Shown in pieces: positions 2,101 through 2,285 of a stretch of DNA of 5,816 nucleotides. How positions within the stretch are numbered: the first letter of the stretch is position 1; each line of letters starts with the position of its first letter. The notes below the pieces were generated by a model that made no database searches, was not told the DNA's origin, and was given only the letters and a program-made list of their open reading frames with translations. Location of the stretch: IMG/VR virus record IMGVR_UViG_2671180695_000012. One strand, 5' to 3'. This DNA is from a virus (Duplodnaviria > Heunggongvirae > Uroviricota > Caudoviricetes). The position numbers and the translations under genes are program-made.

Positions 2101-2205
2101 TTATCTACAAACATATGCTATCGCTGCAACCGCAAAACCAATTGCCCCGATCATTGCCGATAATGCAAGAATAATTCCGGCAATATTTGCTGCTTTAGGT
2201 GTCAT
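2101..2205 (-). CDS. candidate small membrane peptide (34 aa, single predicted TM helix)
   Basis: ATG at 2205 is preceded by AGGGTG about 4 nt upstream. The product is MTPKAANIAGIILALSAMIGAIGFAVAAIAYVCR, with small-xxx-small motifs. Perfect TTGACA (2275-2280) and TATAAT (2256-2261) hexamers lie upstream on the minus strand, but only 13 bp apart. It is not in the ORF track because it is under 60 aa. Confidence 0.3.
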   Translation of the reverse strand: MTPKAANIAGIILALSAMIGAIGFAVAAIAYVCR

Positions 2206-2285
2206 ACTGCACCCTATACTCAGAAAGGTTTTATTGTTATCCTTTACGTGCATGAATTATATCCATGTCTGATTTGTCAAAATGC

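What the first reader, a model, noticed from the sequence alone, without database searches (positions are those of the whole stretch)
2101..2280. Candidate 34-aa single-pass membrane peptide with its own promoter-like elements in the R-Rz gap
The ORF MTPKAANIAGIILALSAMIGAIGFAVAAIAYVCR has a plausible Shine-Dalgarno (AGGGTG), a polar N-terminus, one roughly 22-residue hydrophobic helix with small-xxx-small packing motifs and a short basic C-terminus. This architecture is shared by type I toxins and by small holin/antiholin-like or lysis-modulating peptides. Perfect TTGACA and TATAAT hexamers lie about 50-75 bp upstream on the same strand, though only 13 bp apart. The convergent plus-strand terminator hairpin at 2286-2325 overlaps this upstream region and could mark an antisense RNA.
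Basis: inference. Interest (0 to 1): 0.55.

Follow-up and report, generated by a model that had tools for sequence, protein, structure and literature searches.

The report
Small prophage membrane protein gene
The candidate is a real, usually unannotated gene for a tiny single-pass membrane protein (34-residue core, probably made as a 50-residue protein) on a mobile, hairpin-bounded cassette between a prophage's endolysin and spanin genes; its "own promoter" and antisense-RNA features do not hold up and its function is unknown.

Summary

**The ORF is a real gene.**
- Four diverged copies give dN/dS of 0.03-0.21 with dS about 1.
- All 24 copies examined are intact.
- It matches phrog_12997, a family of unknown function.
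- The frame stays open upstream to ATG 2253 (50 aa).
- In seven lineages this extension keeps a K-T-x-L-x-[VI]-G-G-x-M motif spelled with many synonymous codons, so the 50-aa form is probably made. Two lineages carry only the 34-aa core.

**Predicted protein.** Basic N-tail inside the cell, one strongly hydrophobic Gly/Ala-rich helix, and 1-6 residues outside.

**The promoter is not supported.**
- The hexamer spacing is 13 bp here and 26 bp in two related copies.
- TATAAT is a G-to-T variant of GGAGATAAT, the Shine-Dalgarno region of the long start.
- No promoter is positionally conserved on either strand.

**The hairpin.** The upstream terminator-like hairpin is conserved in nine lineages, 24-46 nt before the start.

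**Context.** The gene sits in three unrelated lysis cassettes and also in tail or baseplate regions. It therefore behaves as a mobile accessory cassette, most likely expressed by late read-through.

Function is unknown. It matches no known type I toxin or holin family. Interest is modest.

The parts
2101..2253 (-). ORF A, long form (50 aa, MHVKDNNKTFLSIGCSMTPKAANIAGIILALSAMIGAIGFAVAAIAYVCR, stop included). Probable primary product.
   Evidence: ORF list. phrog_12997 E = 6.2e-7 over residues 6-48. PGAP annotates this form in strain A19. The extension motif K-T-x-L-x-[VI]-G-G-x-M is kept in 7 lineages with synonymous codon variation, and this is the only frame open in all of them.
2101..2205 (-). 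It holds the TM helix (residues 27-45 of the long form) and a conserved C-terminal Y-x-C.
   Evidence: dN/dS 0.03-0.21, with differences by codon position such as [2,4,16]. Intact in 24/24 copies. It is the only form possible in L023 and L006. Hessa sum -1.9, mean KD 2.54.
2210..2215 (-). Shine-Dalgarno-like AGGGTG, 4 nt before the internal ATG. It also encodes Gly-Cys of the long form.
   Evidence: A G-rich run precedes the invariant ATG in every lineage. Anti-SD duplex energy is -3.9 here against -9.3 to -10.8 kcal/mol in most other lineages.
2256..2264 (-). GGA + TATAAT.
   Evidence: GGAGATAAT in L005, L019-L022. Anti-SD energy -3.1 against -6.4 kcal/mol.
2275..2280 (-).
   Evidence: 13 bp from TATAAT. 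TTGGCA with a 26-bp spacing in L019 and L021, TTGATA in L022. No promoter called.
2277..2325 (.). Terminator-like hairpin. Stem-loop at 2286-2314; on the minus strand an A-tract lies 5' and a U-rich tail lies 3', giving a bidirectional type. It marks the left boundary of the cassette.
   Evidence: -22.3 kcal/mol, z = -3.7. Equivalent hairpins lie 24-46 nt before the long start in 9 lineages. Homology with L002, an R-Rz gap that lacks A, ends at the 5' arm of the hairpin.
1971..2114 (-). ORF B (47 aa). Its ATG overlaps the last codons of A (ATGTTTGTAGATAA), so it is probably translationally coupled to A.
   Evidence: PGAP CDS WP_000496062.1. phrog_1115 E = 4e-19. pS 0.37 against pN 0.04 versus L002. 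An A-like gene followed by a B/D-like gene is also seen in L019 and L030.
1787..1936 (-). ORF C (49 aa, C-terminal TM), unannotated here. It is the partner of the A homologue in Citrobacter.
   Evidence: pS 0.76 against pN 0.10, with differences [6,3,30] versus L004. Adjacent to the A homologue in L004.
1704..1790 (-). ORF D (28 aa), a paralogue of B. Its stop overlaps the Rz start.
   Evidence: PGAP CDS WP_085950722.1. phrog_4493 E = 9.4e-7. Alignment A3.
2405..2938 (-). Endolysin R (SAR-type lysozyme, rrrQ-like); upstream neighbour.
1235..1702 (-). Rz (i-spanin), with Rz1 embedded at 1297-1482; downstream neighbours.

Best explanation
ORF A is a genuine protein-coding gene for a very small inner-membrane protein, carried on a mobile accessory cassette.

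**Shown**
- The 34-codon core is under strong purifying selection.
- The frame continues upstream to ATG 2253, and this extension shows amino-acid-level conservation in most lineages.
- The protein has a basic N-terminal tail, one strongly hydrophobic Gly/Ala/Ser-rich helix, and only 1-6 residues after it.
- The cassette starts at a terminator-like hairpin 24-46 nt before the start codon.
- The same cassette occurs in unrelated phage contexts.
- Its third-codon-position GC is far below that of its neighbours.

**Inferred**
- The main product here is the 50-aa form. The invariant internal ATG, with its G-rich Shine-Dalgarno sequence, may also yield the 34-aa form. That short form is the only one possible in two lineages.
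- Topology is N-in/C-out (tail-anchored), and the small-xxx-small helix favours self- or hetero-oligomerisation.
- The gene has no sigma-70 promoter of its own. It is transcribed with the lysis genes when Q-modified RNA polymerase reads through the hairpin. Without Q, the hairpin keeps it silent.
- Translation runs on into ORF B through the overlapping stop and start.

**Most likely role (weakly supported).** It is a late-expressed, membrane-acting accessory that modulates an inner-membrane event of the lytic cycle, probably together with the B/D-type peptide. It is not an essential lysis component.
For: **Coding**
- dN/dS 0.03-0.21, dS about 1, and third-position excess in all six pairwise comparisons.
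- 24/24 copies intact.
- phrog_12997 E = 6.2e-7.
- Distant relatives found by an exhaustive HMM search.

**Long form**
- Frame 0 is the only frame open in 7 lineages.
- Amino-acid identity is 0.53 in frame 0 against 0.31 and 0.32 in the other frames.
- The conserved Leu is spelled CTG, TTA, CTA, TTG or CTT, and the Thr/Ser as ACC, ACA, ACT, ACG or TCA.
- ATG, GTG or TTG starts with Shine-Dalgarno sequences are present in each lineage.

**Short form**
- The ATG is invariant.
- The internal Shine-Dalgarno sequence is stronger than the long-form one in all nine lineages that have both starts except L024.
- L023 and L006 carry only the core.

**Topology**
- Hessa sum -1.9.
- N-flank net charge +2 to +6 across the family, C-flank 1-6 residues.

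**Cassette**
- Hairpins of -16 to -27 kcal/mol, z = -2.3 to -6.3.
- The homology break with L002 falls at the hairpin.
- GC3 is 0.23 against about 0.5 in neighbours.
- Only 36 of 5,426 complete E. coli genomes carry it, whereas 1,815 match the surrounding region.

**Contexts**
- After a GH24 SAR lysozyme (window), after an M15 peptidase (L005) and after a GH108-like lysin (L019).
- After a DUF4376 tail gene (L003, L023), in baseplate regions (L004, L030), before tail-fibre genes (L024), and after a 3,172-aa polyvalent protein (L028).

**No promoter:**

**Pairing with B/D-type ORFs:** seen in two deep lineages.
Against: - There is no expression data of any kind, so transcription route, start-codon usage and localisation are all inferred.
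- Among close relatives the extension shows no third-position bias, and two lineages lack it. It could therefore be a dispensable or partly untranslated leader.
- In the window both Shine-Dalgarno sequences are weaker than in sister lineages, so this copy may be poorly translated.
- A perfect TATAAT could still fire weakly with TTTTGA at 15 bp (9/12). That would give lysogen expression of the short form only.
- The tail-region and prophage-end contexts, and solitary copies flanked by terminators (L003, L024, L027), fit a classical moron as well as or better than a lysis accessory.
- An intrinsic terminator upstream would reduce expression in phages that lack antitermination.
- Association with three unrelated holin and endolysin sets argues against a specific holin partner.
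Confidence: 0.5

Rival explanations
1. Classical moron. The cassette is an autonomous unit expressed from the repressed prophage, using the TATAAT or another non-consensus promoter. The small inner-membrane protein benefits the lysogen, for example by superinfection exclusion at the DNA-entry step, as HK97 gp15 does.
For: - It is inserted relative to relatives.
- Its composition is deviant: GC3 0.23.
- It is flanked by terminator hairpins on both sides in L003, L024 and L027.
- It lies in tail operons and at prophage ends, the classic moron sites (moron definition and gp15 in PMC3594210).
- L023 has a fair promoter-like site, TTGCCA-N15-GAAAAT, in front of the 34-aa core.
- The window's perfect TATAAT together with TTGACA is found in only about 2% of shuffles.
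Against: - Only 24-46 nt lie between the hairpin and the long start. That is too short for a promoter plus leader.
- The hexamers are 13 bp apart here and 26 bp apart in L019 and L021, and they are replaced by Shine-Dalgarno sequences in other lineages.
- No promoter was called.
- In the window there is no terminator after A. It overlaps B and runs on to Rz.
- PADLOC gives no hit.
Confidence: 0.25
2. Type I toxin-antitoxin-like module. A is a membrane-depolarising toxin. Its translation is controlled by a plus-strand antisense RNA that starts inside or near the 5' end of the ORF and stops at the bidirectional hairpin (2286-2325).
For: - The size and hydrophobic single-helix architecture fit.
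- The hairpin has a T-run on the plus strand (TTTTACTTTTATT).
- An A-rich 5' flank is conserved at all the hairpins, which makes them bidirectional in form.
- Two nested starts are loosely reminiscent of mok/hok. This point rests on memory and was not tested.
Against: - There is no antisense promoter in the tool scan, and none is positionally conserved in relaxed scans of ten loci.
- No Rfam sRNA or antitoxin family is found in the gap.
- No Pfam or NCBIfam toxin model is hit.
- The gene is not autonomous here. It sits in a late operon and is coupled to B.
- Toxicity is untested.
Confidence: 0.07
3. Dedicated holin or antiholin. A, or its two isoforms, binds the S21-like pinholin (3313-3528) through glycine-zipper packing and sets the lysis time.
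For: - It lies in lysis cassettes, directly after the endolysin, in 35 of 36 E. coli genomes that carry it.
- The helix is rich in small-xxx-small motifs (47% G/A/S).
- Two in-frame starts are present.
- There is a marginal match to a PHROG holin family (E = 0.037).
Against: - It is found with three unrelated holin and endolysin sets, and far from lysis genes in five or more other contexts.
- It lacks the charged C-terminal cytoplasmic tail typical of holins, with only 1-6 residues after the helix.
- The starts are 16 codons apart, not the 1-3 codons of classical dual-start motifs.
- The cassette already has a holin.
- It is absent from most related cassettes.
Confidence: 0.1
4. Chance ORF in an intergenic spacer, with no gene.
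For: - It is not annotated by PGAP in genomes identical to the window.
- Short ORFs are abundant: 83 of at least 25 aa in the window.
Against: - dN/dS 0.03-0.21 at saturating dS.
- Intact in 24/24 copies.
- Homologues at 37-53% identity sit in unrelated sequence backgrounds with the same architecture.
- Annotated elsewhere as WP_164543892.1.
Confidence: 0.02

Closest known systems
PHROG family phrog_12997 (unknown function) and RefSeq hypothetical protein WP_164543892.1
   Same: Direct sequence membership: E = 6.2e-7 over residues 6-48 of the 50-aa form against a 52-position profile. PGAP annotates the 50-aa ORF in E. coli A19.
   Different: Nothing is known about the family. The window's own genome leaves the ORF unannotated.
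Moron-encoded small inner-membrane proteins, e.g. HK97 gp15 (superinfection exclusion; PMC3594210)
   Same: A small membrane protein on an inserted, compositionally deviant unit. It is found in tail operons and other module junctions of temperate phages and has terminator hairpins.
   Different: There is no sequence similarity. No credible own promoter was found. The hairpin lies upstream rather than only downstream. In E. coli the gene lies mostly in lysis cassettes and is coupled to a second small ORF. Expression in lysogens is untested.
Type I toxins of enterobacteria (Hok, Ldr, TisB, Ibs, ShoB, Zor, DinQ families)
   Same: Size below 60 aa, a single hydrophobic helix, and potential to perturb the inner membrane.
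   Different: No hit to any family model. No antisense RNA signal. It is embedded in a phage late operon rather than being an autonomous toxin/sRNA locus.
Holins and antiholins (e.g. the S21 pinholin with its glycine-zipper TMD2; dual-start S105/S107)
   Same: A small membrane protein next to an endolysin gene, a helix rich in small-xxx-small motifs, and two in-frame starts.
   Different: One TMD with almost no C-terminal tail. The starts are 16 codons apart. It is associated with unrelated holins and with tail genes. Only a marginal PHROG holin score (E = 0.037).
Phage Mu releasin gp25 (DUF2730; PMC9239132)
   Same: A small membrane-tethered, non-holin protein encoded near a SAR endolysin that acts at the inner membrane.
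   Different: gp25 is 99 aa, N-out/C-in, and has a 73-aa acidic cytoplasmic domain. A is 50 aa, predicted N-in/C-out, and has a basic tail. It gives no DUF2730 hit. A also occurs with endolysins of other catalytic families (M15, GH108-like), whose export type was not examined.

Membership tests
phrog_12997 | Significant match to the family profile over most of its length | tested here: met
   E = 6.2e-7, 30.3 bits, residues 6-48 against profile positions 5-47 of 52.
Moron (Juhala/Hendrix definition, as summarised in PMC3594210) | Extra DNA relative to related phages | tested here: met
   The ORF A segment is present in 36 of 5,426 E. coli genomes, whereas 1,815 match the flanking lysis region. 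It is absent from the homologous R-Rz gap of phage vB_EcoS-569R3, where homology breaks at the hairpin.
Moron (Juhala/Hendrix definition, as summarised in PMC3594210) | Base composition different from neighbouring genes | tested here: met
   A core GC 0.41 and GC3 0.23, against GC3 0.51 (R), 0.58 (Rz) and 0.54 (holin).
Moron (Juhala/Hendrix definition, as summarised in PMC3594210) | Own promoter | tested here: not met
   No sigma-70-like site in 1600-3000 on either strand. Hexamer spacing is 13 bp (26 bp in L019/L021), and the hexamers are not conserved. Only 24-46 nt separate the hairpin from the start. Non-consensus promoters cannot be excluded.
Moron (Juhala/Hendrix definition, as summarised in PMC3594210) | Own terminator | tested here: inconclusive
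   A terminator-like hairpin is always present upstream. Downstream terminators are present in L003, L024 and L027 but not in the window, where A overlaps B.
Moron (Juhala/Hendrix definition, as summarised in PMC3594210) | Expression from the repressed prophage | not testable with these tools
   No transcriptome or ribosome-profiling data were available for a lysogen carrying this prophage.
Type I toxin-antitoxin system | Small hydrophobic membrane peptide (below about 60 aa) | tested here: met
   34 or 50 aa. TM segment 27-45, Hessa sum -1.9, mean KD 2.54.
Type I toxin-antitoxin system | Antisense or divergent sRNA antitoxin with its own promoter and terminator | tested here: not met
   A plus-strand terminator-like hairpin exists. 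No antisense promoter was found, none is positionally conserved in ten loci, and no Rfam family is hit in the gap.
Type I toxin-antitoxin system | Sequence membership in a described toxin family (Hok/Gef, Ldr, TisB, Ibs, ShoB and others) | tested here: not met
   No Pfam or NCBIfam hit at E up to 1.
Type I toxin-antitoxin system | Toxicity on overexpression, neutralised by the RNA | not testable with these tools
   Needs an experiment.
Holin / antiholin | Small membrane protein encoded next to the endolysin | tested here: inconclusive
   True in three lysis-cassette types. The family also lies in tail, baseplate and prophage-end contexts.
Holin / antiholin | Hydrophilic, highly charged C-terminal domain after the last TMD | tested here: not met
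   Only 1-6 residues follow the helix, with net charge 0 to +1.
Holin / antiholin | Similarity to a described holin family | tested here: not met
   No Pfam or NCBIfam hit. phrog_526 'holin' scores only E = 0.037 over the hydrophobic stretch.
Holin / antiholin | Lethal hole formation, or control of lysis timing | not testable with these tools
   Needs lysis-curve experiments.
Releasin (DUF2730, Mu gp25) | DUF2730 domain, with an N-out/C-in membrane tether and an acidic cytoplasmic domain | tested here: not met
   No Pfam hit. Predicted opposite topology and a basic tail. gp25 features are taken from PMC9239132.

The most novel reading that the evidence does not exclude
The R-Rz gap of this widespread lysis-cassette family may be a dedicated, exchangeable slot for tiny tail-anchored membrane peptides (A, B, C and D here, others in L002). 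Each would be guarded by a terminator hairpin that also serves as the recombination joint. A together with a B/D-type peptide would form a two-peptide, late-expressed membrane effector. That would be a new class of lysis accessory or regulator acting between endolysin release and spanin action. Its long and short isoforms, made from nested starts, could act as an effector/inhibitor pair.
Probability: 0.15. Interest if true: 0.65.

Novelty: new member of a known kind. Interest (0 to 1): 0.33.

Why it matters
- **Annotation.** This prophage's endolysin-spanin gap is not empty spacer. It holds four small membrane-protein genes, and two of them (A and C) are missed by the standard annotation of the identical genomes.
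- **Phage-lysis biology.** It flags a cheap, testable set of candidate modulators that sit in the best-studied lysis cassette architecture, including the B/D family present in roughly a third of complete E. coli genomes.
- **Phage evolution.** It gives a clean example of a promoterless micro-gene cassette that moves between lysis, tail and prophage-end positions, with a terminator hairpin as its boundary.
- **Limits.** None of this changes current concepts unless a function is shown.

Tried and rejected
- **tblastn of the 50-aa protein against phage records.** No match. The likely cause is the low-complexity filter on a hydrophobic query, so this says nothing about absence.
- **Scan of GTDB genome contigs with peptide patterns.** 78 pattern matches, none confirmed. 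Uninformative.
- **Homology between the A family and the B/D family.** I suspected it because P0010 ends in ...VIWAIKWW, like ORF D. Profile-profile comparison gave probability 4.5%, so I rejected it.
- **MAFFT alignment of the hairpins for covariation counting.** The stems were not put in structural register. I folded each hairpin separately instead, so no formal covariation statistic is claimed.
- **Releasin analogy (Mu gp25).** Rejected on size, topology and domain.
- **Defence-system models (PADLOC).** Nothing for A, B, C or D.
- **Rfam at a permissive threshold.** Only the three tRNAs and sub-threshold noise; nothing in 1700-2450.
- **Lipobox reading of 'LSIGC' in the extension.** Rejected. 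The Cys is Gly in all other lineages and the -3 position does not fit.
- **Literature searches.** Searches for a described family of small TM genes in the R-Rz gap, or for hairpin-bounded small-gene cassettes, found only general background.
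Full report
**1. Setting**

The window is the late regulatory and lysis region of a lambdoid prophage, read on the minus strand. In order it holds:
- a DUF968 gene;
- RusA (5092-5466);
- antiterminator Q (4274-5095);
- three tRNA genes (about 3824-4130);
- a 71-aa S21-like class II holin (3313-3528);
- a YdfR-family gene (2994-3308);
- a 177-aa SAR-type lysozyme R (2405-2938);
- a roughly 700-bp gap;
- Rz (1235-1702) with embedded Rz1 (1297-1482);
- packaging genes beyond that.

It is 100% identical to prophages in several E. 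coli chromosomes; the close matches include named ETEC strains such as TW10598 and O169:H41 isolates.

**2. The observation**

- The 34-codon ORF runs from ATG 2205 to stop 2103-2101.
- AGGGTG lies 4 nt upstream of that ATG.
- TTGACA is at 2280-2275 and TATAAT at 2261-2256, 13 bp apart.
- A G+C hairpin sits at 2286-2314, with A and T tracts out to 2325.

Two points need adding. First, the frame is open further upstream to ATG 2253, which gives a 50-aa ORF. Second, PGAP does not annotate this ORF in the identical genomes. It annotates two other small ORFs in the gap: B (1971-2114, 47 aa) and D (1704-1790, 28 aa). It does annotate the 50-aa form in strain A19.

**3. It is a real gene**

The 50-aa translation matches phrog_12997, a family of unknown function, at E = 6.2e-7. 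Homologues are few. The indexed search gave five clusters, from E. coli, Citrobacter braakii and unnamed ENA/Logan assemblies. IMG/VR gave 16 contigs. An exhaustive profile search of 1.84 billion representatives gave six hits at E up to 1e-3, five of them small proteins of 34-58 aa.

Four diverged DNA copies (window, L003, L004, L023) give dN/dS of 0.03-0.21 for the 34-codon core, with dS about 1. Differences are concentrated at third positions, for example [2,4,16]. The other frames of the coding strand carry stops or are less well conserved, and two of the three opposite-strand frames carry stops. All 24 copies I retrieved have an intact core. The 1-nt indels seen among E. coli genomes fall in the T-tract after the hairpin, not in the ORF. 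A strongly hydrophobic ATG-ORF like this one is expected 0.08 times in shuffles of the window. The chance-ORF reading is refuted.

**4. Which start codon?**

Among close relatives the 16-codon extension shows no codon-position bias. Two lineages cannot make it. L023 has an in-frame TAA seven codons upstream of the internal ATG. L006 has the extension replaced by another small ORF.

The deep comparison says otherwise for most lineages. Seven lineages down to 37% identity keep K-[TS]-x-L-x-[VIT]-G-G-x-M directly before the core. The Leu is spelled CTG, TTA, CTA, TTG or CTT, and the Thr/Ser as ACC, ACA, ACT, ACG or TCA. Frame 0 is the only frame open in all seven, and amino-acid identity is 0.53 there against 0.31 and 0.32 in the other frames. 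Each has an ATG, GTG or TTG start 15-19 codons upstream with a recognisable Shine-Dalgarno sequence.

The internal Met is invariant. A G-rich Shine-Dalgarno-like run always precedes it, and in all nine lineages that have both starts except L024 it binds the anti-SD more strongly than the long-form site does.

My reading is that the 50-aa protein is the usual product, and that the 34-aa core is the functional minimum and a possible second isoform. In the window both ribosome-binding sites are weaker than in sister lineages. GGAG has become GGAT at the long start. GGGGG has become GGGTG at the internal start, which also changes Gly15 to Cys.

**5. The protein**

The best TM segment is residues 27-45, IILALSAMIGAIGFAVAAI. 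Its summed Hessa energy is -1.9 kcal/mol, its mean Kyte-Doolittle value is 2.54, and 47% of its residues are Gly, Ala or Ser. By these measures it is clearly more hydrophobic than the SAR segment of the neighbouring endolysin (Hessa sum +4.1, mean KD 1.78). Across the family the N-flank carries a net charge of +2 to +6, and only 1-6 residues follow the helix. By the positive-inside rule this gives an N-in/C-out, tail-anchored topology, which is an inference. A Tyr-x-Cys near the C-terminus is conserved in the enterobacterial members.

Pfam, NCBIfam and PADLOC give nothing. The only 'holin' signal is a marginal PHROG score of E = 0.037 over the hydrophobic stretch.

**6. The promoter-like hexamers**

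- The tool scan finds no sigma-70-like site on either strand in 1600-3000.
- The TTGACA/TATAAT pair is nominally unusual, occurring in 2% of shuffles, but the spacer is 13 bp.
- In the sister lineages the '-10' is GATAAT inside GGAGATAATTCATG, where GGAG is the Shine-Dalgarno sequence of the long start. The window's TATAAT is a single G-to-T change of that motif.
- L019 and L021 have TTGGCA and a 13-nt insertion, giving a 26-bp spacer. L022 has TTGATA.
- In L003, L004, L024, L027, L028 and L030 the equivalent position holds Shine-Dalgarno sequences, not promoter boxes.
- Relaxed scans of ten loci (at least 8 of 12 matches, spacers 15-19) find no positionally conserved promoter on either strand. 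The recurrent '-10-like' hexamers all coincide with the AT-rich spacer in front of the long start.
- The one copy with a fair promoter-like site (TTGCCA-N15-GAAAAT) is L023, the copy that has lost both hairpin and extension.

The own-promoter idea is therefore not supported for the window. A weak, non-consensus promoter cannot be excluded.

**7. The hairpin**

The hairpin is not just a convergent plus-strand terminator. A stable G+C hairpin (-16 to -27 kcal/mol, z = -2.3 to -6.3) precedes the ORF on its coding strand in nine lineages, including sequence backgrounds with quite different neighbouring genes. All have an A-rich 5' flank and most have a U-rich 3' flank. The stem ends 24-46 nt before the long-form start. 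The enterobacterial versions share inner ACTG/CAGT pairs. Their outer stems differ in complementary fashion: CCCCGG/CCGGGG, GCCCGG/CCGGGC, GCCCCG/CGGGGC and CCCCGA/TCGGGG. I could not obtain a structurally registered alignment, so I claim no covariation statistic.

Two comparisons suggest that the hairpins mark cassette boundaries and act as recombination joints.
- In phage vB_EcoS-569R3 the 80 nt after R are homologous to the window up to AAGTGAATAAAAGTAAAA-CCCCG, the 5' arm. From there a different hairpin and different small ORFs follow.
- In L003 the gene is bracketed by two similar hairpins. In L006 the order of A and a neighbouring 53-aa ORF is permuted relative to L003.

The space between hairpin and start is too short for a promoter plus leader. 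This fits transcription coming from upstream. In the lambdoid context that means Q-modified polymerase reading through from the late promoter, with the hairpin keeping the gene silent otherwise. This route is inferred and was not observed.

**8. Context and mobility**

Only 36 of 5,426 complete E. coli genomes carry the ORF A segment, whereas 1,815 match parts of the surrounding region. Its GC3 is 0.23 against about 0.5 for R, Rz and the holin.

In E. coli it lies directly after the endolysin in three unrelated lysis cassettes:
- a GH24 SAR lysozyme with an S21-type holin (the window);
- an M15 peptidase with two other holin-like genes (L005);
- a GH108-like lysin with yet other holin-like genes (L019).

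In each it is followed by a B/D-type small ORF whose ATG overlaps A's last codons, and then by the spanin gene or genes.

Elsewhere it lies:
- after a DUF4376 tail gene at a prophage end (L003, L023);
- between baseplate genes (L004 in Citrobacter, followed by a homologue of ORF C);
- between a 271-aa gene and a Sheath_initiator (baseplate) gene (L030, followed by a B/D-like ORF ending ...VIRWW);
- before tail-fibre genes (L024, L025);
- after a 3,172-aa polyvalent protein (L028).

In almost every locus it is co-oriented with the gene immediately upstream (the exception is L026). It therefore behaves as a mobile accessory cassette. Its partnership with a B/D-type peptide recurs in two deep lineages. 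A and B/D are not detectably homologous (hhalign probability 4.5%).

**9. What it most likely does**

- Shown: it is a conserved, mobile gene for a tiny tail-anchored membrane protein.
- Inferred: it is expressed late by read-through and coupled to B.
- Function: unknown.

I weigh four options.
- (a) A late-expressed membrane accessory that modulates an inner-membrane step of the lytic cycle, possibly with B/D. The E. coli positions, the translational coupling and the lack of a promoter favour this.
- (b) A classical moron expressed in the lysogen, for example an exclusion protein of the HK97 gp15 kind. The composition, the terminator bracketing and the tail or prophage-end sites favour this (PMC3594210).
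- (c) A dedicated holin or antiholin. Its association with three unrelated holin sets and with tail genes, and the missing C-terminal tail, weaken this.
- (d) A type I toxin with an antisense RNA. Only the shape of the peptide and the bidirectional form of the hairpin support this. No promoter was found, no Rfam family is hit, and it belongs to no known toxin family.

I put (a) first at modest confidence, with (b) a serious rival.

**10. Comparison with known things, and novelty**

By sequence it is a member of phrog_12997, and some RefSeq genomes annotate it as a hypothetical protein. It is therefore not new as a sequence and is uncharacterised. It is not a releasin (Mu gp25 is 99 aa, N-out/C-in, DUF2730; PMC9239132). 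It belongs to no described holin or type I toxin family. It meets only some of the moron criteria: insertion and composition yes, promoter no.

Hydrophobic, unannotated small ORFs under purifying selection are known to be very common in Enterobacteriaceae. One survey reports 67,297 clusters (PMC11188072). The existence of one more is therefore not surprising. The mildly unusual aspects are the deeply conserved hairpin-then-ORF layout, the nested starts, and the fact that this endolysin-spanin gap holds four such genes. I rate it as a new member of a known kind, with modest interest.

Noticed in passing
window 1787-1936 (-): ORF C (49 aa, MIKAETTSQGADDAAKIIAVCRGIRHILTPVAWIICTALVAYTTIYLNR, C-terminal TM) is not annotated by PGAP in the identical genome, but it is clearly a real gene. 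Against the Citrobacter copy (L004, where it directly follows the A homologue), pS is 0.76 and pN 0.10, with differences by codon position of [6,3,30]. It has no significant family hit (best is phrog_31434 at E = 0.11).
   Followed up: partly
window 1971-2114 (-) and 1704-1790 (-): ORFs B (47 aa) and D (28 aa) are paralogues (IRAxAFAI[KR]xVAV...). They belong to a widespread unnamed family (phrog_1115, 3246 and 4493). Parts of this region match 1,815 of 5,426 complete E. coli genomes. D's stop overlaps the Rz start (TGATATG), and the same ...RWW-stop/ATG junction precedes other spanin or baseplate genes in L019 and L030. The helices carry Arg/Lys at i, i+7 spacing. Function is unknown, and every source calls them hypothetical.
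   Followed up: partly
L002 535-1176 (phage vB_EcoS-569R3): The homologous R-Rz gap of an isolated phage holds a different hairpin and different small tail-anchored TM ORFs, for example a roughly 44-aa ORF ending ...LIVAIKG and the 43-aa MSDKLITPAKVLCVIVG... These come before B-like and D-like ORFs. The gap therefore looks like a variable slot for tiny membrane proteins. The deposited 70-aa 'TPR_REGION' call starts inside the hairpin and is probably mis-started.
   Followed up: partly
L003 940-1040 and L006 2842-3003: Another hairpin-bounded small ORF (53 aa, VINFSGGDWIVKALKLMAKSNTLRRMYYAAVLVALAFALSPVLTALVNVMGSQ) lies downstream of A in L003 but upstream of the A core in L006. This indicates cassette shuffling at prophage ends.
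   Followed up: no
window 2210-2215 and 2261-2264 (-): Relative to sister lineages, the window's copy has point changes that weaken both ribosome-binding sites. GGAG becomes GGAT before ATG 2253. GGGGG becomes GGGTG before ATG 2205, which also changes Gly15 to Cys. The whole group of copies with the window's extension variant (IGCS) shares these changes, which may mean expression has been tuned down.
   Followed up: partly
window 3824-4130 (-): Three tRNA genes lie between Q and the holin (Ile, Thr and Gly according to PGAP in the identical genome). This is the usual position of phage tRNA clusters in Stx-like lambdoid prophages.
   Followed up: no
window 4141-4273 (-): Just downstream of Q there is a strong hairpin with a T-run (minus strand AACCCGCCGCCGAGCGGGTTTTTTATT, about 4168-4194). 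A sub-threshold Rfam 'Trp_leader' match also lies here (E = 0.063, 25.5 bits against a gathering score of 41). This is probably the late-promoter leader and tR'-type terminator on which Q acts, not a trp attenuator.
   Followed up: no
window 2994-3308 (-): A YdfR-family gene (104 aa, DUF1327-like) sits between the holin and the endolysin, as in the Qin prophage. Its function is unknown.
   Followed up: no
L019 4255-4437: In the GH108-type cassette, the gene after the D-like ORF encodes a 60-aa lipoprotein-like product (…LLVGCASLDK…) instead of an Rz/Rz1 pair. It may be a different spanin arrangement. PGAP does not annotate the equivalent ORF in strain A19.
   Followed up: no
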